From a virus, in the UHGV virus genome UHGV-0383422: a DNA stretch of 40,660 nucleotides. One strand, written 5' to 3'. The first letter of the stretch is position 1; each line of letters begins with the position of its first letter. The notes beneath the pieces were generated by a model. The model ran no database searches. It had not been told where the DNA came from and saw nothing but the letters and a program-made list of their open reading frames with translations. Below, piece after piece: positions 1,308 to 36,748 of the stretch. Made by a program: the position numbers and the translations under genes.

Positions 1308-1324
1308 TATACCTTTAAGGTAAT
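1308..1324. promoter_or_regulatory. operator-like palindrome TATACCT-TTA-AGGTAAT upstream of int
   Basis: Member of the dispersed ATTACCT-N3-AGGTAAT family; 42-58 bp upstream of the int start codon; flanked by 9-bp inverted repeat TGACGGTAT/ATACCGTCA (1294-1302, 1323-1331). Confidence 0.45.
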
Positions 1325-6910: not shown

Positions 6911-6927
6911 ATTACCTTTCAGGTAAT
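6911..6927. promoter_or_regulatory. operator-like palindrome ATTACCT-TTC-AGGTAAT (perfect 7-3-7)
   Basis: In the divergent intergenic region between tailspike and the LexA-controlled gene. Confidence 0.5.
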
Positions 6928-6963: not shown

Positions 6964-6983
6964 TACTGTATAAATATACAGTT
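6964..6983 (+). promoter_or_regulatory. LexA (SOS) box TACTGTATAAATATACAGTT
   Basis: Perfect CTGT-N8-ACAG (6966-6981) with AT-rich spacer, about 20 bp upstream of the start codon at 7003; -35-like TTGATA at 6960-6965. Confidence 0.8.
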
Positions 6984-7002
6984 ATTGCATGGAGAAGATA
7001 AG

Positions 7003-7260
7003 ATGCAGCAGTATCACTATCCACTGGAAGACGGATTTACCGAAAGGATTCACACGCCGGGAGGCGTCAGGTCACTGGTGGAGGGATCGCACTTGATGAA
7101 ATTACTCCGGGATCTCGATAAGGATGGATTTAATGTCGATGGCCCACTTGCCGAACTGACTGCACTGATTAACTACGTCACCAGCTCACAGATGTCTATG
7201 CAGGATCTGCAAACACATCTCGACTATTGTGCCGAACAATTACGAAAACAAACCCGGTAA
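7003..7260 (+). CDS. small SOS-controlled antirepressor-like protein
   Basis: 85 aa from ATG at 7003 with GGAGA Shine-Dalgarno; LexA box upstream; clearly homologous to the C-terminal approx 80 aa of the Bro-N protein at 8409-9119. Confidence 0.7.
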   Translation: MQQYHYPLEDGFTERIHTPGGVRSLVEGSHLMKLLRDLDKDGFNVDGPLAELTALINYVTSSQMSMQDLQTHLDYCAEQLRKQTR

Positions 7261-8030: not shown

Positions 8031-8047
8031 ATTACCTTAAAGGTAAT
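8031..8047. promoter_or_regulatory. operator-like palindrome ATTACCT-TAA-AGGTAAT (perfect)
   Basis: 20-36 bp upstream of the start codon of the 7283-8011 gene; a weaker copy ATTACCT-TTG-CGGTAAA lies at 8124-8140. Confidence 0.5.
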
Positions 8048-8408
8048 ATCTTGCTTTCAGGTGATCAAGCGTTAAACGCCACCAACCAAATACGGTTGAT
8101 TTTGATATTTCTCCGCGTTTATCATTACCTTTGCGGTAAATTTACATCGCACTCCTCTTGTGCCATAGTAATCGGGCACTGGCAAAATCCAGTGCCGGGA
8201 TTGGCGTCCCGGGTTACTAAGTGGCGCATACCACGCCAGACGTGGTTTTTTTATGCGTTAAGCACAGCTATATCCGAATTATGGTGGGCTGGGCAGGGGT
8301 CCGAAAGGACGCCGGTACCACTTAGGCCGGTACGCCAACCTTGTCCAGTTCACCACCAGTAATTGGCGTTGCGGTGGTGATTAAAATCACTAAGTGGAGA
8401 TAACCACC

Positions 8409-9119
8409 ATGGCTAATGCTCAAACTTCCATCTTCAAATTTGAATCTGTTAACCCTATCCGTTCCATCATTATCGATGGCCAACCATGGTTTGTAGCCCA
8501 AGACGTTTGTAGTGCGCTGCGTATCCAAAACGTCACCCAAGCACTTGAAAAACTGGATGATGATGAAAGGTCTATGTTCAACATAGGGCATGAACATCGT
8601 GCAATTTTTGACAGCCGAGTAAAAGAGATCAACATCATCTCCGAGTCAGGCCTCTACACACTGATCCTCCGCTGCCGCGACGCAGTGACACCAGGCACTA
8701 TCCCCTACCGCTTTCGTAAATGGGTTACGGGTGAGGTTCTTCCTCAGATCCGCCGCACCGGAAGCTACATTAAAAACTCGCTCCCGCAGGAAGAACGCAT
8801 AAAGATGGTTGCCGACCAGGTGGCCAACGCCACGGCGTCAGCAGTAATGCAGGCGATGAAGATAGAGAACAAAACCTACAGCGCCCCACTGAATCCCGGC
8901 TACCGCAGCCTGATTCATTCGCCGTCTGGTGTTCTCGGCCTGACGGAGAACTCACTGCTGATGAATCTGCTGAACCAGTTACAGGACGACGGGCACGACG
9001 TATCGGGCGCGGCGGCGGAGCTGACCACCATGTTCTGCTACATCGTCGGTGTGAGCAAATGCCTGCGTGATATCCAGACCCACGCGGAATACATCAACGA
9101 CAAGGCAGGGTTCTTCTGA
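8409..9119 (+). CDS. Bro-N domain antirepressor-like protein
   Basis: 236 aa from ATG at 8409 with GGAGA Shine-Dalgarno; N-terminal Bro-N/KilA-N-like region; C-terminal domain homologous to the 7003-7260 product. Confidence 0.7.
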   Translation: MANAQTSIFKFESVNPIRSIIIDGQPWFVAQDVCSALRIQNVTQALEKLDDDERSMFNIGHEHRAIFDSRVKEINIISESGLYTLILRCRDAVTPGTIPYRFRKWVTGEVLPQIRRTGSYIKNSLPQEERIKMVADQVANATASAVMQAMKIENKTYSAPLNPGYRSLIHSPSGVLGLTENSLLMNLLNQLQDDGHDVSGAAAELTTMFCYIVGVSKCLRDIQTHAEYINDKAGFF

Positions 9120-9190: not shown

Positions 9191-9207
9191 ATTACCTTAA
9201 AGGTAAA
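9191..9207. promoter_or_regulatory. operator-like palindrome ATTACCT-TAA-AGGTAAA
   Basis: Immediately upstream of the GGAGG Shine-Dalgarno and ATG (9219) of the 55-aa gene. Confidence 0.5.
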
Positions 9208-10124: not shown

Positions 10125-10136
10125 GTGACATGTCAC
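10125..10136. repeat. 12-bp perfect palindrome GTGACATGTCAC (copy 1 of 3)
   Basis: Exact palindrome between convergent accessory genes and the ejection operon. Confidence 0.6.
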
Positions 10137-18102: not shown

Positions 18103-20573
18103 CAGAACCCACCAACAGTAAGGCGAGGAATAACGGCAAGAACAGACAGCGGCAACGGATCAAGCTGACGGATTTTTACACGTCCGTTTTTGCCCCAGTT
18201 ACTGTCCAGTTTCACTTCTACTTTTCCGGTAGCATCATCAACAGGATCATCGTAGAACTCGAATTCACGCTGTGGATATTCGTACCATTTACCGCCGGGC
18301 GTAGTCGCCCAGATGCCGCGACTGGCATTCACAACCAGAGTAACGGACGGGATCACCTGTTTTTTGTCCAGCAGCGTTTCCTGTCCGTTAATGTTGATAT
18401 CCAGTGTTTCGAATTCAGCAGTTATTGGCAGGCCGATGTGCACTACAGCCCCCGGTGATTCCAGCGTGACGGCACATCCGGAAACCACTTTCTGTGGTTC
18501 CACGTTCGCATCAGAGAGAATGTTTACGGTCTGGCCTTCAAGATGAGACAGGCCTCCAAATGTCCGGCGCGCCATCTGCCAGTTCGTGGTGGCCACATTC
18601 CTGAGGGATGGCGGGACGTTCCTGTTAGCACGAACCACTACAGCGGTATTGCTGGTTACAGAAATAATGTCGCAACGTAATTCTTTTGACACCTCATCGC
18701 CAGTATCAGGATCAGTTCCGGTATAAGGGAACTGTAGTTGCGCGCCGACATCACTACTGGTGAAGTACGCACCACCAGAAACACTGATTGTATATTCCGC
18801 GCGGTAATCCCATTCGCCAGAACCACCAGTGATGATCATCGTTCTGTCAGACGTATTTCTTCCATCATAGCTAAGGCCAGAATCAACAAAGAAAGCATCT
18901 TCATCGCTGGTAAATAAACGGCTGGACAGTCGCTCGATGTATCTCACTGTTTGCCCGTTAACGGTTCGGTTAACGACGAAATACACCGCATCTTCATTGC
19001 CTTCGCTGATACTGCATGTGCTTTCATATTTTCCGGTACTGGATTGTGGTGCCCATGCAAAAACCTGCTGATCACGCAAATAGGTCATCACCAGTAATTT
19101 ACCGTCATCACGGATGCAGAAGGCGCTGGAGTAAGGGACTATTGAGAAGCACCAGTCAACAATGCTGTGCTTCTGAAAAAGATGATTGGCAAGGATAGTA
19201 AGGTCGTTCCCCTGATAGCCGTCAACATCGAATGAGTAGGCCAGATCACGGACAACACTGCCTTTCTCCTGGACGAACAGAGCAATATTCGCCACGGCAA
19301 TTGGTGGGACATTGCTCGAGCCATTTGATCCCTGAGAGCTGAATGCAAATGATGATGGGGTAAGCACTTTGTTCTGGTCGCCAGTGATGACGTACTCACC
19401 TCCGGAAGTCAGCGCCACCAGCGAACCAACATCAATCAGGTGACGGATCTCATTAACCTGACGCCCGGCATAGGTGTAGATAATTCTGTCGTCATCCTGC
19501 GTAGGATTGCTTTTGCCAAAATCCTTATAATCCCCAGTACGGCTGGCCCAGATAGTCTGAGGGAACGCAGTCGATGCGGCGAAGTAAAGACGCTGTTGAT
19601 AATAAACAACAGTGCCAGGATAACCATTAACACTGTTCCAGGCATATTTAGCCCATTTATAGCTGGCATTATCCTCGCCAACGACCTGCGAAGGGATATA
19701 GGAAATCACCTCGGCAGTTGCAGTAGTGCCATTTGCAGCAGTGATACGGGCAATGCCAAAACCACTGTGCAGATACTCCCACTCAATGCCAGTATCATCA
19801 TCACCGGATCCGCCCCAGCCATCCCATGATGTGCCTTCTGTATGCGAAGGGCGCAAAGTACCTGTTTTGCCTGCTGTAACGGCGCGATAGTAGTTACTGT
19901 CTGCACGGCGAATATCGCCAATCGACGTACTCTTACTGGTTTCCCATACAGGTACTGAATCCACTGCAGGCTGTTCCAGATAGAACAATTTGCCTACCTG
20001 CTCCGCGCCAAAAATAGAGACGCTTGCCGTTAACGTAATTGTCCCGGTGCTGGCGCTGGCATAAACCGTCACTGACTCATCAATATTGATATCTTCAAAT
20101 GGCCCGTTCTTCGTTACCACATCAACCAGTTGCCAGTTGTCATGCGCATAGCGACGCAACTCTTTCGGCGGGTATGCCGGATGAACAAGCGTAAGCACGT
20201 CTGCGCTTTGCGTGAATTTAATTCGGAACAGATCGGCTTCAGTATATGGCGTGGCAATTTCATAAATAACATTGCTGCTGTTCAGCACCAACGCACCATC
20301 TTTGATAACGCGCATGTACTGGTGTCCGAACTCCAGAGCATAGGTCTGAACCGTCGAGAACTGGAACGGGATCAGGCGGCATTTCCGATTTGGGTATTTG
20401 GCGGCACCGACAAAACGCGTACCAGGTCGATTCTCAACGCCGCCATACTGCCGCACGATAAAGTTATCGCACTTGCGCAATGCCACCTGGTACTTCGCCA
20501 TGTCGATACGTCCGTACAACGACGGTCCAATCTCACCACCAGCAAAGCTGGGCTGGATCCAACTGATAGCCAT
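18102..20573 (-). CDS. large tail/nozzle structural protein
   Basis: 823 aa; position between adaptor-like and internal virion genes. Confidence 0.55.
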   Translation of the reverse strand: MAISWIQPSFAGGEIGPSLYGRIDMAKYQVALRKCDNFIVRQYGGVENRPGTRFVGAAKYPNRKCRLIPFQFSTVQTYALEFGHQYMRVIKDGALVLNSSNVIYEIATPYTEADLFRIKFTQSADVLTLVHPAYPPKELRRYAHDNWQLVDVVTKNGPFEDINIDESVTVYASASTGTITLTASVSIFGAEQVGKLFYLEQPAVDSVPVWETSKSTSIGDIRRADSNYYRAVTAGKTGTLRPSHTEGTSWDGWGGSGDDDTGIEWEYLHSGFGIARITAANGTTATAEVISYIPSQVVGEDNASYKWAKYAWNSVNGYPGTVVYYQQRLYFAASTAFPQTIWASRTGDYKDFGKSNPTQDDDRIIYTYAGRQVNEIRHLIDVGSLVALTSGGEYVITGDQNKVLTPSSFAFSSQGSNGSSNVPPIAVANIALFVQEKGSVVRDLAYSFDVDGYQGNDLTILANHLFQKHSIVDWCFSIVPYSSAFCIRDDGKLLVMTYLRDQQVFAWAPQSSTGKYESTCSISEGNEDAVYFVVNRTVNGQTVRYIERLSSRLFTSDEDAFFVDSGLSYDGRNTSDRTMIITGGSGEWDYRAEYTISVSGGAYFTSSDVGAQLQFPYTGTDPDTGDEVSKELRCDIISVTSNTAVVVRANRNVPPSLRNVATTNWQMARRTFGGLSHLEGQTVNILSDANVEPQKVVSGCAVTLESPGAVVHIGLPITAEFETLDININGQETLLDKKQVIPSVTLVVNASRGIWATTPGGKWYEYPQREFEFYDDPVDDATGKVEVKLDSNWGKNGRVKIRQLDPLPLSVLAVIPRLTVGGF

Positions 20574-24089: not shown

Positions 24090-24382
24090 TCCTGTTCACT
24101 GGCCTCTTTGGCCATCTTCAAATACTGTTCAGGGCAATGCGCCATAACGCGCTGAAACAGTTCCAGCGCCAGATTGCGTTGCCCCTCATTAAATGCCATT
24201 GCCATAGCATCCATCGGAGAGATAGCGGAAAACACCCGGCCTTTCTCCAGCACCGACCAGACAACGCGACGCCCCTGTTCACTGCTCATGACAAAGCGAA
24301 TGTCATCAATTTCACGCTGTGCCATGTCACGTTGCTTACGGGCGTTTTCTTCTTTCAGTTGATCGTCTTCGAAATCTGTCAT
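24086..24382 (-). CDS. hypothetical head-morphogenesis protein
   Basis: 98 aa; coupled between portal and scaffold. Confidence 0.5.
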   Translation of the reverse strand: MTDFEDDQLKEENARKQRDMAQREIDDIRFVMSSEQGRRVVWSVLEKGRVFSAISPMDAMAMAFNEGQRNLALELFQRVMAHCPEQYLKMAKEASEQE

Positions 24383-26367: not shown

Positions 26368-26384
26368 TATTACCTTTCAGGTAA
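26368..26384. promoter_or_regulatory. operator-like palindrome ATTACCT-TTC-AGGTAAC
   Basis: Dispersed motif family member, in the terminase-portal accessory island. Confidence 0.45.
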
Positions 26385-26706
26385 CCAAAGAGTTCATTCC
26401 GGTTACTAACCTGACTGGCTTGTCGTTAAATTGAACAGGTGGAGTGAGCTTTTATTTTGAGCAGTACGGCGTATGGCACATGCGCCGATAGCGGTCTGGA
26501 TACGTTTAAGGGGCACCCTCCCTTGCTCGGGCAAACGAACCAGGTAGCCGGAATGTGCAAGTCGAGCGGTTTTATTCCGCGCACGGGGATTCACCATCCC
26601 GGCGATTCGGTGTGACGCCTCGGAAGAGACGAGGGTACAACGATGAGAGCATTTATGGAGCCGCGACAAAGTGTGGCGCCTTAACAGGCTAAGTGCTCTC
26701 AGCGTT

Positions 26707-26783
26707 GTGGCATTAGCTCAGTTGGACAGAGCAACCGCCTTCTAAGCGGTTGGTCGCAGGTTCGAATCCTGCATGCCACGCCA
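26707..26783 (+). tRNA. tRNA-Arg (anticodon UCU)
   Basis: Folded by hand: acceptor GTGGCAT/ATGCCAC, D-arm GCTC/GAGC, anticodon stem ACCGC/GCGGT with loop CTTCTAA (anticodon TCT), T-arm GCAGG-TTCGAAT-CCTGC, discriminator G and CCA. Confidence 0.9.
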
Positions 26784-26868: not shown

Positions 26869-26946
26869 ACAGCAGGACGCCATTGCGATGACTTCATGCT
26901 GTAAACCAGTACAGCCACGGAAGGCATAACTCATTGCTTCCAGTTC

Positions 26947-26971
26947 GCCCGGTTCGTCCGGGCATTTTTTT
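26947..26971 (+). terminator. rho-independent terminator
   Basis: Stem GCCCGG/CCGGGC with TTCGT loop followed by ATTTTTTT; next ATG only 13 nt downstream. Confidence 0.65.
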
Positions 26972-26983
26972 AAGGTGAAAATC

Positions 26984-27320: not shown

Positions 27321-27332
27321 GTGACATGTCAC
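27321..27332. repeat. 12-bp perfect palindrome GTGACATGTCAC (copy 2 of 3)
   Basis: Exact palindrome four nt after the stop of 26984-27316. Confidence 0.6.
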
Positions 27333-27406: not shown

Positions 27407-28882
27407 TTAAGCATAGGGATCGTAATCTGTGATGGCCTTGCCTTGCTGGTTCTGCTGACCGGGAATTCGCAGACGCTTCGACACAGGGAACGCAAACGTC
27501 AGCAGTAGCGCATCGCCTTTACCAGGAGAACGCCCAAGTCGCTCTTTGATATCTTCCTTCGGTTCGATAACGATTTTACCGTCCACTCGAACTTTGTACT
27601 CTGCTGCCGACAGGTCGTCCGCTGTTTCCTGGTCATCCAGCATGCCGCCCAGCCTCAGCCATGTCTTGCATGAATTGAACATCTCCCCACGCTTGTTGAG
27701 CATCTGCGGGTCAGTAGACGCGCCACCGAACGGAACAAGTTGCCATGTACGACCCCATCCGTCACCGATTGACTTCAGACCGGTTCCGTAACCGAAGTCG
27801 ATGAACACCGCGTCAGCCTGATACTGGTCTTCAAAGTCAGCGATACGCTTCGCCATAATCAGATCGTCGGTAGTCTTGTTGCCAGTCCACAGCACCTTAC
27901 TGTGTAGCCCCTGCCGCAGGTATATCACCGCGTCATCAACGCCTGAATATGCCGGGTCAACACCGATTATCACCGGAGCATGCGCCACCTGCGCAGCGGT
28001 TACCACCCGTTTCATTGCCTCATCAGTAAGACCGGTAGGGATAAACTGCAATTCAGATGCATCAGGGAATATGCCGCGCACACGGATTTTAACGAAGTCG
28101 CTGTCTTCCCCGTAGTCATCAACCCATTTCTGCAACTGCTGTTTGTTAGTGCCTTCCACCGTTCGGCTGTCAATCTGCGCAGTTTTCCAGCGGTGTTTAT
28201 ATTTGCGGAAACATTCGCGGAAACGTCCGGTATTACGCGTCGGGTTTCCGAACGCCACCCAGATAATCTCAGTGTCTTCGTCCGTTAGTGCACCCTCGGC
28301 AACTTCCCACACCAGATCCGCAATGTTCGACGCTTCATCGAATACCACGATGATGCGTTTGCGCTCGTTGTGTAGTCCGGCGAATGCCTCAGTGTTGTGC
28401 TCAGACCAGGGGATTGCGTCAGCTCGCCACCGCTTGTCGTGTCCAGGATCATTGCTGTACATCGCGGTAGCGGTACAGGTAAACCAGTCTTTCGTGATAG
28501 CAAGGTTCGACCACTTGATAATTTCCGGCCAGGTCTTCGTTCGTAGCTGGTTGTCGGTGTTGGCGGTCACCACGACCTTACAATCCTCGCAAGTGGACAT
28601 GCCCCAGTTGATCAGCATTGAGATGAATGCGGATTTACCAATACCGTGACCCGAAGCACGTGCCAGCATAAGCGGCTGATAGCGCGTCTCTGGATTCTGC
28701 AGGTGATCACGTATCTCTCGGAACGCATCAGCCTGCCACTGACGTGGGCCGGTAGCATGTGCCAGTTCAGTCCCCTCTTCCCCCCACGGGAACGCATAGA
28801 GGGCATAGCCAAGCGGATCGTGAGTGAACCCTGCAATATCCTCGATCAACTGCTCTTCAGGAGATAACGCTGTATCTGTCAC
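27407..28882 (-). CDS. terminase large subunit
   Basis: 491 aa; Walker A-like ASGHGIGKS; acidic nuclease-region motifs; coupled to small subunit. Confidence 0.85.
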   Translation of the reverse strand: MTDTALSPEEQLIEDIAGFTHDPLGYALYAFPWGEEGTELAHATGPRQWQADAFREIRDHLQNPETRYQPLMLARASGHGIGKSAFISMLINWGMSTCEDCKVVVTANTDNQLRTKTWPEIIKWSNLAITKDWFTCTATAMYSNDPGHDKRWRADAIPWSEHNTEAFAGLHNERKRIIVVFDEASNIADLVWEVAEGALTDEDTEIIWVAFGNPTRNTGRFRECFRKYKHRWKTAQIDSRTVEGTNKQQLQKWVDDYGEDSDFVKIRVRGIFPDASELQFIPTGLTDEAMKRVVTAAQVAHAPVIIGVDPAYSGVDDAVIYLRQGLHSKVLWTGNKTTDDLIMAKRIADFEDQYQADAVFIDFGYGTGLKSIGDGWGRTWQLVPFGGASTDPQMLNKRGEMFNSCKTWLRLGGMLDDQETADDLSAAEYKVRVDGKIVIEPKEDIKERLGRSPGKGDALLLTFAFPVSKRLRIPGQQNQQGKAITDYDPYA

Positions 28883-29553
28883 TGATTACCATCCTGACGT
28901 TCTTTGAGTCGCTTCCTGGCTGCTGCTATGCGATCAGCAATTGTCACATTCACATTAACATCCAGACGTTCTTTGAACGCGTTGACATCAACATGCTTAC
29001 CAATCAGCTCAAGGTTCTTCACCTTGTCAGGCCATTTAATTTTTTTGAGGATTGTCTCTATCGAATCCTCGTTCATGTTCATGATGGTCGATGACAGATC
29101 AAAGCCACTAAGCGTAGTGCGCCAGATTTTCGGCCACTCACGGATTGGTTTAAGGCTCCCATCGTCGTTGAGGATGTCGATCACGTCCATCTGGTCGATC
29201 TCCACCAGGCGCATGAGAACGTAATCAGCACTGACGCGCATTCGTTTGTTGCGCTCCTCCATCAACTCGGCAATCCGTTTTTGAATGCGTTCATCGCGCA
29301 TCATGACACTGGCTTTAACTGCCGCTGTATTTGGGGAGAATCCTGCGTTAATCGCTGCCTGAGTCTGGTTTTCAGGCGTTTTGATGTATGACTGGCAATA
29401 AGCCTCCTGCATTGCTGTTAGTGGCTTAAATTGCGTTGATTTGCGTTTATAGGTTTTAGGTTCAGCAGGCATCATAACCACCGTGGTAATAGTTACCGTT
29501 GTGGTAATAGTACCATGCAAAATAAAGCCGCCATAGTTGGCGGCAGTATTCAA
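28879..29553 (-). CDS. terminase small subunit
   Basis: 224 aa; N-terminal HTH-like region (AMQEAYCQSYIKTPENQTQAAINAGFSPNTAAVKA); likelier start may be the internal MM at 29475, as the listed N-terminus is encoded by a direct-repeat region. Confidence 0.8.
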   Translation of the reverse strand: MNTAANYGGFILHGTITTTVTITTVVMMPAEPKTYKRKSTQFKPLTAMQEAYCQSYIKTPENQTQAAINAGFSPNTAAVKASVMMRDERIQKRIAELMEERNKRMRVSADYVLMRLVEIDQMDVIDILNDDGSLKPIREWPKIWRTTLSGFDLSSTIMNMNEDSIETILKKIKWPDKVKNLELIGKHVDVNAFKERLDVNVNVTIADRIAAARKRLKERQDGNQ

Positions 29554-29585
29554 AACCCATCAAATTCATCATGCATAATCTACTC

Positions 29586-29597
29586 GTGACATGTCAC
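29586..29597. repeat. 12-bp perfect palindrome GTGACATGTCAC (copy 3 of 3)
   Basis: Exact palindrome between the upstream gene stop and the small-terminase start region. Confidence 0.6.
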
Positions 29598-29941
29598 ACT
29601 ATTAATTTCGTTTCATGCCAGCCTTTAGTCACCCAGCATTGCGAGTCACCATTACACGGGCATGAATTAACTGGAACTCTCTCGCCGCACTTACCGCAAC
29701 ATTTTCTGCTGATCGATTTTATACGCCCGCGCACGCGTGCATCATCCTGGCGGATCAGTAACGCGATGTACTCGGCCATTTCATAGGGATCGCGACCAGG
29801 GCGCCGGGCGGCGCAGTTCCGCGCCAGCATTTCCTGCTCCTGCTTATCCAGCACCAGTTCAATTTTGCGCTCACCGGCGGCGGACTGCCGAGCGCGCTGC
29901 GCGGCTTTGCGTTCTGCGGGGGATTTAGCCACGAATCGCAC
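29594..29941 (-). CDS. hypothetical protein with Cys-rich C-terminus (start uncertain)
   Basis: Listed ORF starts at GTG; internal ATG (MLARN...) has AGGAG Shine-Dalgarno; C-terminus CCGKCGERVPVNSCPCNGDSQCW; GC-rich segment. Confidence 0.4.
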   Translation of the reverse strand: MRFVAKSPAERKAAQRARQSAAGERKIELVLDKQEQEMLARNCAARRPGRDPYEMAEYIALLIRQDDARVRGRIKSISRKCCGKCGERVPVNSCPCNGDSQCWVTKGWHETKLIV

Positions 29942-30047
29942 TCCACGCCAGATTGATTAATGACTCCCAGGTAATATAAACCCGGATACCAGCAGCCAGG
30001 CCGAAACCAATCACCATGGCATAAAGCAGAGCGTTGCACTTGTTCAT
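29925..30047 (-). CDS. small membrane peptide (40 aa)
   Basis: MNKCNALLYAMVIGFGLAAGIRVYITWESLINLAWSAIRG; AGGAGGTGA Shine-Dalgarno; ATG overlaps upstream stop. Confidence 0.45.
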   Translation of the reverse strand: MNKCNALLYAMVIGFGLAAGIRVYITWESLINLAWSAIRG

Positions 30048-33596: not shown

Positions 33597-33613
33597 TTTA
33601 CCTCTAAGGTAAT
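33597..33613. promoter_or_regulatory. operator-like palindrome TTTACCT-CTA-AGGTAAT
   Basis: Dispersed motif family; overlaps the ribosome-binding region of 33250-33594. Confidence 0.45.
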
Positions 33614-33658
33614 TAAAAACCATATAAGACACGAAATCAATAGAGTTTAGAATATTTT

Positions 33659-33675
33659 GTTACCTTGTAGGTAAT
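33659..33675. promoter_or_regulatory. operator-like palindrome GTTACCT-TGT-AGGTAAT
   Basis: Second copy 62 bp from the previous one, between replication and nin-like modules. Confidence 0.45.
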
Positions 33676-35891: not shown

Positions 35892-35956
35892 TTCACCCAT
35901 AAGGTAACAAAAATCAAGGATAGTTACCTATGAGGTGCATTTACCTGTTGGGTAAT
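35892..35956. promoter_or_regulatory. operator cluster: three palindromes of the ATTACCT-N3-AGGTAAT family at the cro/cI divergent region
   Basis: 35892-35908 TTCACCC-ATA-AGGTAAC; 35923-35939 GTTACCT-ATG-AGGTGCA; 35940-35956 TTTACCT-GTT-GGGTAAT. Confidence 0.6.
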
Positions 35957-36010: not shown

Positions 36011-36595
36011 ATGAAAAGTATCCAGGACGTCCGCAGGCAAAATCTCAACGACTTGATCGACCGTGAATTCAATGGTGTTCAGACGCGGATGGCAGAAAAA
36101 CTTGGAACTCAGGCAAATCTGGTAAACCGCTGGGCTCTTGGCAAGAAGGTTATCGGCGACCAGGTTGCACGAAAAATTGAAGCTGCCGCCAATAAACCCC
36201 GTAACTGGCTTGATATTGATCGTTCGCTTTCTCAGGAGGGTTTTCAGCCTGTCGGCCCGAGCGATATAGGTCAGCTGGCGGCTCACAACCTGGAACGCTG
36301 GATGAGCGAAAGCCGCGACCTTTCAACACAGGGAAAACTTCACCGCGCATCCGGCGTCGCCCAGGTGACAATCAGCCGCCTGTTAAACAATGAGGTCAGC
36401 GTTTCCATTTCCACCCTGGAGAATGTTGCATCCGCATTCGGGCGTCACGGATATGAACTACTGATTCACCCGCACGACCCTGCGACTATCAACTATGACC
36501 GCTCACGCTACGCATTGTTACCCGAAACCGAGAAAGCAAAGATCGAAAGTTACATTGAATTTGTCATCAACCAGAACGAAAAAAGCAAACAATAA
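36011..36595 (+). CDS. CI-like repressor candidate (HTH; no LexA-type self-cleavage domain evident)
   Basis: 194 aa; HTH-like segments; no Ser-Lys peptidase motif; divergent from cro-like gene; own terminator. Confidence 0.55.
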   Translation: MKSIQDVRRQNLNDLIDREFNGVQTRMAEKLGTQANLVNRWALGKKVIGDQVARKIEAAANKPRNWLDIDRSLSQEGFQPVGPSDIGQLAAHNLERWMSESRDLSTQGKLHRASGVAQVTISRLLNNEVSVSISTLENVASAFGRHGYELLIHPHDPATINYDRSRYALLPETEKAKIESYIEFVINQNEKSKQ

Positions 36596-36641: not shown

Positions 36642-36652
36642 TGCCAGATAGA

Positions 36653-36669
36653 TTACCTTACGGGTAATT
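36653..36669. promoter_or_regulatory. operator-like palindrome ATTACCT-TAC-GGGTAAT
   Basis: Between the CI terminator and the promoter of the rightward recombination operon; weaker related copy at 36714-36730. Confidence 0.5.
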
Positions 36670-36686
36670 TTTTTAACTCATATCTA

Positions 36687-36715
36687 TTGACACCAAACCA
36701 AATAAGCATAATTAT
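36687..36715 (+). promoter_or_regulatory. candidate sigma70 promoter for rightward early operon
   Basis: TTGACA (36687-36692), 17-bp spacer, AATTAT-like -10; sits between terminator/operator and the first ORF. Confidence 0.35.
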
Positions 36716-36748
36716 TACCCCAACGGTAACAGACCGAGGTAACAAGTT

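What the first reader, a model, noticed from the sequence alone, without database searches (positions are those of the whole stretch)
29483..29511. Direct repeats GTGGTAATAGT at the small-terminase start
Two copies of GTGGTAATAGT (29483-29493 and 29501-29511) lie at the 5' end of the small-terminase ORF and encode its odd Thr/Val-rich N-terminal extension. With palindrome copy 3 about 75 bp upstream, this may be a packaging-recognition or late-promoter element, and it suggests translation really starts at the internal MM (29475).
Basis: seen in the sequence. Interest (0 to 1): 0.3.

Follow-up and report, generated by a model that had tools for sequence, protein, structure and literature searches.

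The report
Tandem repressor operators before small terminase
The two repeated 11-mers are the left halves of two side-by-side binding sites for the prophage's own lysogeny repressor, placed over the likely promoter and ribosome-binding site of the DNA-packaging genes; this is an ordinary, already described feature of epsilon15/phiV10-like phages, not a packaging signal or a coding repeat.

Summary
The repeat is real: GTGGTAATAGT occurs at 29483-29493 and 29501-29511. On its own it is weak evidence, because exact 11-mers within 50 nt are expected 0.47 times per window and 3 are seen.

The window is a phiV10/epsilon15-like (Uetakevirus) E. coli prophage with its late genes on the minus strand. 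On that strand the repeat reads ACTATTACCAC twice. These are the left halves of two adjacent 17-bp inverted repeats, ATTACCacaacGGTAAC (29508-29492) and ATTACCacggtGGTTAT (29490-29474).

ATTACC-N5-GGTAAT occurs 14 times in the window against 1.1 expected. The sites cluster around a homologue of the SPC32H repressor Rep (36011-36595) and the antirepressor region. The RefSeq record of epsilon15 annotates the orthologous site upstream of terS as a repressor-binding site.

Across 32 distinct relatives the half-sites are invariant and the spacers vary. A TGnTAnnAT extended -10 motif fused to the distal site is also invariant.

The "Thr/Val-rich extension" is non-coding. It contains a terminator, the likely promoter and the operators, and relatives carry in-frame stops there.

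Nothing supports a packaging-site role. Interest is low: a new member of a known kind.

The parts
29501..29511 (-). Direct-repeat copy 1 (gene strand ACTATTACCAC). It covers positions 2-6 of the putative -10 hexamer, the left half-site ATTACC of the distal operator, and 2 spacer bases.
29483..29493 (-). Direct-repeat copy 2 (gene strand ACTATTACCAC). It covers the last 2 bases of the distal operator, 1 bp of spacer, the left half-site ATTACC of the proximal operator, and 2 spacer bases.
29492..29508 (-). Distal Rep operator ATTACCacaacGGTAAC (1 mismatch to ATTACC-N5-GGTAAT). It is orthologous to the annotated epsilon15 'repressor' protein_bind site at 12-27.
   Evidence: 11 of 12 half-site columns are invariant in 32 distinct relatives, and 4 of 5 spacer columns vary
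29474..29490 (-). Proximal Rep operator ATTACCacggtGGTTAT (1 mismatch). It overlaps the Shine-Dalgarno sequence and the first ATG. It is an accessory site: 2 mismatches in epsilon15, 3 in SPC32H, and degenerate in the Klebsiella clade.
29507..29515 (-). Putative extended -10 promoter element TGgTACTAT, fused to the distal operator through its last two bases. The inferred transcription start is near 29500.
   Evidence: TG and the TA of the hexamer are invariant in all 32 variants while n and hexamer positions 3-4 vary. Promoter function is inferred, not shown.
29519..29544 (-). Intrinsic terminator GCCGCCaactatGGCGGC plus TTTATTTT. It ends the upstream (early-right) operon and is annotated as a rho-independent terminator in epsilon15.
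29478..29482 (-). Shine-Dalgarno-like GGTGG, 5 nt before ATG 29472.
   Evidence: G/T columns at least 94% conserved
28879..29472 (-). terS (small terminase, Pfam Terminase_2). The real CDS starts at ATG 29472 (MPAEPK...). The database TTG start at 29553 is an over-extension.
36011..36595 (+). rep: the lysogeny repressor, a full-length homologue of SPC32H Rep (PDB 5D50, E 3.5e-42). It is the presumed binder of the operators.
36652..36730 (.). Operator pair 36652-36668 and 36714-36730, 62 bp apart, flanking the promoter TTGACA-17-AATTAT downstream of rep. Reference example of the operator family.
33597..33675 (.). Operator pair 33597-33613 and 33659-33675, also 62 bp apart, flanking TTGATT-17-TTTAAT on the minus strand.
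35940..35956 (.). Operator upstream of rep, in the divergent early region.
8031..8140 (.). Operators 8031-8047 and 8124-8140 at the promoter of the isrK/C4/Bro-N antirepressor-like module.
9191..9207 (.). Operator fused to TACTAT and overlapping the AGGAGG ribosome-binding site of a + strand ORF. Same architecture as at terS.
26369..26385 (.). Operator in the late region between terL and the portal genes, syntenic with epsilon15 site 2931-2947.
6911..6927 (.). Operator upstream of the tailspike gene, syntenic with epsilon15 site 19895-19911.
1308..1324 (.). Weaker operator-like site (2 mismatches) upstream of the integrase gene, syntenic with epsilon15 26881-26897 and SPC32H 26959-26975.

Best explanation
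The repeat marks two adjacent 17-bp operators for the prophage's lysogeny repressor Rep, which is of the epsilon15/SPC32H type and is encoded at 36011-36595. On the gene (minus) strand the layout runs: terminator (29544-29519), extended -10 TGgTACTAT (29515-29507), distal operator ATTACCacaacGGTAAC (29508-29492), 1 bp, proximal operator ATTACCacggtGGTTAT (29490-29474, covering the Shine-Dalgarno GGTGG), then ATG 29472 of terS. In a lysogen, Rep bound at these sites would cover the -10 and start region and the first ~27 bp of the transcript. That would keep the terminase/late operon off, while the terminator blocks read-through from the upstream operon. When Rep is inactivated by the antirepressor, the promoter fires. 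Shown here: the motif family, its enrichment, its clustering around rep, orthology to the annotated epsilon15 site, selective conservation of half-sites, and the non-coding nature of the 'extension'. Inferred: physical binding by Rep, promoter activity and the start site near 29500, and one tetramer contacting both sites. The exact 11-bp identity, which reaches beyond the half-site, is specific to the phiV10-like E. coli clade. It probably reflects a local duplication or conversion that strengthened an accessory second operator.
For: (1) ATTACC-N5-GGTAAT with up to 2 mismatches: 14 sites in the window against 1.13 expected, 0 of 100 shuffles reaching 14. The same excess is seen in epsilon15 (18 against 0.92) and SPC32H (18 against 1.19). 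(2) Both repeat copies sit inside such sites, at 29474-29490 and 29492-29508, with 1 mismatch each. (3) ORF 36011-36595 is a full-length homologue of SPC32H Rep (PDB 5D50, E 3.5e-42), and three sites flank it. Others lie at the antirepressor/isrK/C4 module and at sigma70-like promoters where the -10 ends in the AT of ATTACC. (4) RefSeq NC_004775.2 annotates 'protein_bind, repressor, lysogeny' at 12-27, immediately upstream of epsilon15 terS. That sequence aligns with the distal site, and a second unannotated site follows at 29-45. (5) In 32 distinct upstream variants from 140 IMG/VR loci, ATTACC and GGTAA of the distal site are invariant while 4 of 5 spacer columns vary. The block persists behind three unrelated upstream contexts. 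(6) TG and the TA of TGnTAnnAT are invariant while n and hexamer positions 3-4 vary. This holds even in variants that lack the terminator. (7) Published descriptions say Rep binds palindromic sites as a tetramer whose DNA-binding pairs come from different dimers (PMC9638917). That fits paired operators.
Against: No binding or transcription data exist for this prophage, and the papers on epsilon15 and SPC32H operators were not available. 'Rep binds this motif' therefore rests on the database annotation, on genomic logic, and on my recollection of those papers. The proximal site carries an internal mismatch (GGTTAT) and is weak or lost in SPC32H and Klebsiella relatives, so it may contribute little. 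No -35 element is present, and the chance of TG..TA appearing next to one of 26 site orientations is about 0.1, so the promoter call rests mainly on conservation. Centre-to-centre spacing of 18 bp (20 bp in one clade) puts the two sites on different helix faces, which is awkward for simultaneous binding by one rigid oligomer. All relatives share one operator specificity, so no covariation test between repressor and site was possible.
Confidence: 0.82

Rival explanations
1. Packaging recognition site: the small terminase binds the two direct repeats to start headful packaging, as with lambda cosB R sites or SPP1 pacL.
For: The position immediately upstream of terS is typical for pac or cosB elements. 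The genus packages by headful: the Tyrion genome is terminally redundant and circularly permuted (PMC5754475), so a pac site must exist, and it is unmapped. TerS has an N-terminal DNA-binding-type domain (Terminase_2).
Against: The motif is not unique. About 12 further copies lie at early, immunity, antirepressor, integrase and tail-gene promoters. The orthologous site is annotated as repressor-binding. The second copy decays in SPC32H and Klebsiella phages, whose TerS is 77-87% identical. phiES15, with a 60% identical TerS, has no such repeats. The record ends of phiV10 and Tyrion near 29593 are arbitrary linearisations at a gene boundary, not physical ends.
Confidence: 0.05
2. RNA-level control: the alternating complementary segments (GGUA / UUACC / GGUAA / UUACC / GGUGGUUA) fold in the terS leader and hide the Shine-Dalgarno sequence, giving translational regulation.
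For: The putative leader folds into a hairpin of -10.0 kcal/mol that pairs ACCAC with GGUGG, the Shine-Dalgarno sequence. A longer read-through leader gives -20.7 kcal/mol.
Against: Any palindromic operator gives such hairpins. The consensus fold over 32 variants is only -5.3 kcal/mol, with 0 compensatory pairs out of 10. The stems are invariant in sequence rather than covarying. The outer ACCAC/GGUGG helix is absent in epsilon15-type sequences. The same motif occurs in both orientations and at untranscribed promoter positions. There was no Rfam hit.
Confidence: 0.05
3. Transcription roadblock only: the sites are Rep operators but no promoter is present. Rep simply blocks polymerases that leak through the terminator, in the manner of mycobacteriophage L5 stoperators.
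For: The sites lie directly after a terminator and there is no -35 element. Rep sites are dispersed through the late region.
Against: TG and the TA of an extended -10 are invariant in all 32 variants, including those with no terminator. At four other promoters in the window the -10 is fused to ATTACC in the same register.
Confidence: 0.12
4. The repeat is translated: TerS starts at TTG 29553 and carries a Thr/Val-rich N-terminal extension, as annotated by PGAP and in the phiV10 record.
For: The ORF is open from TTG 29553. RefSeq E. coli genomes and phiV10 annotate this long form.
Against: The 'extension' contains a terminator hairpin and the operators. Relatives L061, L071, L081, L094, L101 and L105 have in-frame stops there. 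Homology to all relatives starts at MPAEP. There is a conserved GGTGG 5 nt before an invariant ATG. epsilon15 and SPC32H annotate the short form.
Confidence: 0.02

Closest known systems
Repressor operators of Salmonella phage epsilon15, and of SPC32H/SPN1S (17-bp ATTACC-N5-GGTAAT; Rep, PDB 5D50)
   Same: Same motif. Same genomic position: the epsilon15 record annotates a repressor site at 12-27, directly upstream of terS. Same dispersed set of syntenic sites, before the gp3/portal genes, before the tailspike, around rep, and in the replication region. The repressor is homologous. The upstream terminator is the same.
   Different: The repressor here is only about 43% identical overall to epsilon15/SPC32H Rep, with a better conserved N-terminal domain. 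The second, proximal operator is much better formed here (1 mismatch, against 2 in epsilon15 and 3 in SPC32H) and is not annotated in any record I saw. The exact 11-bp direct repeat is limited to the phiV10-like E. coli clade.
Lambda OR/OL tandem 17-bp operators overlapping promoters
   Same: Adjacent, partly symmetric 17-bp sites of graded quality that overlap the -10 and start region. Oligomeric repressor. Pairs of sites at a distance (62 bp here) that could allow looping.
   Different: Here the sites control the packaging/late operon directly, which lambda CI does not do. Spacing is 18 bp rather than 23-24 bp. The repressor is a tetramer said to use a 'trans' pairing of DNA-binding domains (PMC9638917) and is inactivated by an antirepressor rather than by RecA-stimulated cleavage (from literature, not tested here).
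Dispersed repressor sites of phage P1 (C1 operators) and mycobacteriophage L5 (gp71 stoperators)
   Same: One lysogeny repressor with many sites spread over the genome, including late-gene regions.
   Different: L5 stoperators are asymmetric and orientation-dependent, whereas these sites are palindromic and mostly fused to recognisable -10 elements. This is a resemblance recalled from memory and was not tested.
Terminase recognition repeats (lambda cosB R1-R3, SPP1 pacL boxes, P1 pac hexamers)
   Same: Short repeats next to the small-terminase gene.
   Different: Those are unique packaging loci bound by TerS. The present motif is a genome-wide operator family tied to the repressor gene.

Membership tests
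epsilon15/SPC32H-type Rep operator | 17-bp hyphenated inverted repeat ATTACC-N5-GGTAAT | tested here: met
   29508-29492 ATTACCacaacGGTAAC and 29490-29474 ATTACCacggtGGTTAT, 1 mismatch each
epsilon15/SPC32H-type Rep operator | Many copies in one genome, far above chance, clustered around a cognate rep gene | tested here: met
   14 sites against 1.13 expected. Sites 35940, 36652 and 36714 flank ORF 36011-36595, a homologue of PDB 5D50 Rep with E 3.5e-42.
epsilon15/SPC32H-type Rep operator | Positional orthology to a site annotated as repressor-binding in the type phage | tested here: met
   NC_004775.2 protein_bind 'repressor' at 12-27, upstream of terS at 47. It aligns with the distal site.
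epsilon15/SPC32H-type Rep operator | Half-sites under selection while the spacer is free | tested here: met
   Distal site: 11 of 12 half-site columns invariant and 4 of 5 spacer columns variable in 32 distinct variants
epsilon15/SPC32H-type Rep operator | Physical binding by Rep (EMSA or footprint) and Rep-dependent repression | not testable with these tools
   The primary papers (Kropinski 2007; Kim & Ryu 2013; Kim et al. 2016) are not held
sigma70 extended -10 promoter | TGn followed by a TATAAT-like hexamer with T1, A2 and T6 | tested here: met
   TGgTACTAT at 29515-29507. It is the only operator orientation with TGn plus a hexamer matching at least 4 of 6.
sigma70 extended -10 promoter | Key positions conserved in relatives while weak positions drift | tested here: met
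   TG and TA are 32/32. n = G/T/A, position 3 = C/T/G, position 4 = T/C/A.
sigma70 extended -10 promoter | Mapped transcription start or promoter activity | not testable with these tools
   No transcript data were available
Terminase recognition site (pac / cosB) | A site specific to the packaging locus, not a genome-wide motif | tested here: not met
   About 12 further copies at unrelated promoters
Terminase recognition site (pac / cosB) | Retained wherever the cognate TerS is retained | tested here: not met
   The proximal copy has 3 mismatches in SPC32H and is degenerate in Klebsiella phages despite 77-87% TerS identity. It is absent in phiES15.
Terminase recognition site (pac / cosB) | Packaging series starts or DNA ends map here | not testable with these tools
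   The only information is that Tyrion DNA is circularly permuted. Record ends near 29593 are arbitrary.
Structured RNA leader / translational operator | Conserved secondary structure with compensatory changes | tested here: not met
   RNAalifold -5.3 kcal/mol, 0 of 10 pairs compensatory. No Rfam hit.
Coding N-terminal extension of TerS | Open reading frame maintained in relatives | tested here: not met
   In-frame stops in six of the seven relative variants translated

The most novel reading that the evidence does not exclude
In phiV10-like phages the lysogeny repressor may gate the DNA-packaging/late operon directly. It would act through a dedicated extended -10 promoter insulated by a terminator, with a recently duplicated second operator placed over the ribosome-binding site. 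That would mean no late activator is needed at terS, and the exact 11-bp repeat would be a visible case of operator birth by local duplication. A dual use of the same sites by TerS as pac is not strictly excluded.
Probability: 0.3. Interest if true: 0.35.

Novelty: new member of a known kind. Interest (0 to 1): 0.2.

Why it matters
The main value is for annotation. It shows that the long TTG-initiated "terminase small subunit" in the phiV10 record and in PGAP-annotated E. coli genomes is an over-extension that swallows a terminator, a likely promoter and two operators. It also adds an unannotated second operator and a likely promoter to the regulatory map of a prophage type found in about 13% of complete E. 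coli genomes (698 of 5426). Biologically, it supports the picture that Uetakevirus repressors silence late and packaging genes directly at several dispersed sites. That is relevant to engineering phiV10 reporter phages and to predicting induction behaviour. It does not open a new question.

Tried and rejected
(1) A cos or physical end at the palindrome. The phiV10 record starts, and the Tyrion record ends, at window position ~29593, the centre of GTGACATGTCAC. Annotation showed both are linearised at the stop codon of the last gene, and Tyrion is circularly permuted. Rejected.

(2) An RNA switch built from alternating complementary segments. This looked attractive by eye and by single-sequence folding. 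It showed no covariation and weak consensus energy, and the complementarity is explained by the palindromic operators.

(3) A MAFFT alignment of the four palindrome contexts to find a shared promoter gave no usable register.

(4) A decoupling test, looking for phages with a Rep homologue but an unrelated terminase. Rep homologues in the phage collection are confined to Uetakevirus-type genomes, so the test was not possible.

(5) Literature. The primary papers on epsilon15 and SPC32H operators could not be retrieved. A full-text search for the operator consensus string found nothing. The ZX5 paper gives no operator or packaging detail.

(6) The sigma70 consensus scan found no standard -35/-10 promoter at the repeat. 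The extended -10 was found only by comparison across relatives.

Full report
**Observation**

The 11-mer GTGGTAATAGT occurs exactly at 29483-29493 and 29501-29511 (+ strand), 18 bp apart. As a bare repeat this is weak evidence. Exact 11-mers recurring within 50 nt are expected 0.47 times per window in first-order Markov simulations, and three are present, two of them in unrelated coding regions.

The mechanical ORF 28879..29553 on the minus strand starts at TTG. It reads the repeat as TITTTVTITTVV, followed by MM. The palindrome GTGACATGTCAC lies at 29586-29597.

**Context**

The window is a phiV10/epsilon15-like (Uetakevirus) prophage of E. coli. The 29250-29950 segment is 91.5-99% identical, over at least 97% of its length, to 11 Escherichia phage records including EC.W1-9, TL-2011b and ZX5. 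The phiV10 record matches at 99.1%, but only over the terS-side half, because that record starts there. The segment is also found in 698 of 5426 complete E. coli genomes.

Late genes run on the minus strand. On that strand the order is as follows:
- a 115-aa ORF annotated 'transcriptional regulator' (29941-29594), whose TGA stop lies inside the palindrome
- an intrinsic terminator GCCGCCaactatGGCGGC-TTTATTTT (29544-29519)
- GCA-TGgTACTAT-TACCacaacGGTAAC-t-ATTACCacggtGGTTAT-G-ATG, followed by terS

**What the repeat is**

On the gene strand the repeat reads ACTATTACCAC. Each copy holds the left half of a 17-bp hyphenated inverted repeat:
- distal: ATTACCacaacGGTAAC (29508-29492)
- proximal: ATTACCacggtGGTTAT (29490-29474)

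Searching ATTACCNNNNNGGTAAT with up to 2 mismatches gives 14 sites in the window against 1.13 expected, with 0 of 100 shuffles reaching 14. The same excess holds in epsilon15 (18 against 0.92) and SPC32H (18 against 1.19).

The sites fall into these groups:
- **Around the repressor gene.** Sites 35940, 36652 and 36714 surround ORF 36011-36595. That ORF is a full-length homologue of the crystallised repressor Rep of Salmonella phage SPC32H (PDB 5D50, E 3.5e-42; two HTH domains).
- **Antirepressor module.** Sites 8031, 8124 and 9191 lie around the isrK/C4/Bro-N antirepressor-like genes.
- **Replication region.** Sites 33597 and 33659.
- **Upstream of late and integrase genes.** Sites lie before the integrase (1308), the tailspike (6911) and the portal cluster (26369).

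Several sites are fused to recognisable sigma70 promoters, with the -10 hexamer ending in the AT of ATTACC. Examples are TTGACA-17-AATTAT at 36714, TTGATT-17-TTTAAT at 33597, TTGATT-18-TATCAT at 8124, and TACTAT at 9191. Two pairs are exactly 62 bp apart: 36652/36714 and 33597/33659.

The RefSeq record of epsilon15 annotates 'protein_bind: repressor, lysogeny' at 12-27, directly upstream of its terS at 47, plus six other such sites at syntenic places. The epsilon15 sequence there is TGtTACTATTACCaaaacGGTAATtATTACTtcggtGGTAACaATG. This is the same tandem layout, with the second site unannotated.

**Comparative test**

Two IMG/VR scans with TerS proteins gave 140 loci and 32 distinct upstream sequences. 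The block made of TGnTAnnAT, the distal operator, the proximal region and the ATG persists behind three unrelated upstream contexts. Some of those contexts have no terminator.

In the alignment:
- Invariant columns are exactly TG, the TA of the hexamer, ATTACC and GGTAA of the distal site, ATT of the proximal site, and the ATG.
- The distal spacer varies at 4 of 5 columns, as do the 'n' and hexamer positions 3-4.
- The proximal site is graded. It has 1 mismatch in the phiV10-like clade and in one other clade, where the two sites are 20 rather than 18 bp apart. It has 2 mismatches in epsilon15 and 3 in SPC32H, and it is unrecognisable in Klebsiella relatives, where only a perfect distal site remains.

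This is the signature of a sequence-specific protein site plus an accessory site. The exact 11-bp identity, which reaches into non-operator flanks, is peculiar to the phiV10-like clade and suggests a local duplication or conversion (inference).

**Start codon**

The 'extension' is not coding, for these reasons:
- It contains the terminator and the operators.
- Homology with every relative begins at MPAEP.
- Six of the seven relative variants translated have in-frame stops in the region.
- GGTGG lies 5 nt before an invariant ATG at 29472. The first ATG (29475) is missing in some relatives.

epsilon15 and SPC32H annotate the short form. phiV10 and PGAP annotate the long TTG form, which I regard as an annotation artefact.

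**Mechanism**

Shown here: motif identity, enrichment, association with rep, orthology to the annotated site, and the pattern of selective conservation.

Inferred:
- Rep binds these sites.
- TGgTACTAT (29515-29507) is an extended -10 promoter, with a start near 29500.
- Rep on the distal site occludes the -10 and start region.
- Rep on the proximal site adds cooperativity or a block over the first ~27 bp.
- The terminator insulates the late operon from the upstream early operon.

Rep is described as a tetramer whose DNA-binding pairs come from different dimers, with one tetramer sufficient for repression (PMC9638917). Its tetramerisation domain resembles DNA-looping domains (PMC9986798). Both points are compatible with paired operators.

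**Rivals**

- **Packaging site.** The genus packages by headful (Tyrion DNA is circularly permuted) and pac is unmapped. However, the motif is genome-wide and tied to rep, the second copy is not retained with TerS, and the record ends near 29593 are arbitrary.
- **RNA leader structure.** Single-sequence folds give -10 and -20.7 kcal/mol. The consensus fold is -5.3 kcal/mol with no compensatory pair, and there is no Rfam hit.
- **Roadblock without a promoter.** Not excluded, since no -35 is present. It is disfavoured by the invariant TG/TA.
- **Translated extension.** Rejected, as above.

**Novelty**

The kind of element is known. The orthologous distal site is already annotated in epsilon15. 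What this analysis adds is small:
- the second operator
- a likely promoter
- a corrected terS start for phiV10-like prophages

Interest is low.

Noticed in passing
window 29586-29597, 27321-27332, 10125-10136, 24319-24330 (1 mismatch); L088 (epsilon15) 2142, 19517, 39612: The palindrome GTGACATGTCAC recurs at the 3' ends of transcription units: overlapping the stop of the 115-aa 'regulator' gene, after terL, and at the end of the late operon. It sits next to intrinsic terminators. At 10125 it is immediately followed by GGCCGCtttcGCGGCC-TTGTTTTT. Three exact copies lie at syntenic positions in epsilon15, against 0.07 expected. The function is unknown; it may be a protein site linked to termination or antitermination.
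   Followed up: partly
window 6964-6982: A perfect LexA (SOS) box, TACTGTATAAATATACAGT, lies just upstream of a small + strand ORF (~6985-7260). This is the position of the ant antirepressor gene in SPC32H, and it is next to Rep operator 6911-6927. It suggests SOS-controlled antirepressor induction.
   Followed up: partly
window 8176-8252 and 8277-8360 (+): Rfam hits to isrK (67.7 bits) and C4 antisense RNA (66 bits) lie upstream of a Bro-N protein gene (8394-9119), flanked by Rep operators at 8031, 8124 and 9191. This looks like a P1/P7-like antisense-controlled antirepressor module inside a Uetakevirus.
   Followed up: no
window 26707-26783 (+): A tRNA-Arg (anticodon TCT) is encoded on the strand opposite to the late genes, between terL and the portal cluster. 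A TTGACA promoter-like element overlapped by Rep operator 26369-26385 lies upstream. SPC32H carries a tRNA-Arg at the same place.
   Followed up: no
window 36652/36714 and 33597/33659; epsilon15 32554/32616; SPC32H 33603/33665 and 35971/36033: Operator pairs flanking promoters are exactly 62 bp apart, start to start, in several places and in three phages. This suggests a fixed geometry for one Rep tetramer bridging two sites.
   Followed up: partly
window 28879-29553 (-); NZ_AP040229.1 1296845-1297555; NC_007804.2 41-715: PGAP/RefSeq and the phiV10 record annotate terS from the upstream TTG, adding about 27 non-coding codons that include a terminator and two operators. epsilon15 and SPC32H use the ATG.
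   Followed up: yes
window 29594-29941 (-): The 115-aa ORF upstream of the terminator has a Cys-rich C-terminus (CCGKCGERVPVNSCPCNGDSQC) and no Pfam hit. It is annotated 'transcriptional regulator' in relatives (epsilon15 gp49). It is replaced by unrelated sequence in many otherwise near-identical prophages.
   Followed up: partly
window 9191-9207 and 33597-33613: Two further Rep operators overlap ribosome-binding sites (GGTAAAGGAGG...ATG and AGAGGTAAAtcATG), as the proximal terS operator does. The GGT-rich half-site seems to double as Shine-Dalgarno sequence.
   Followed up: no
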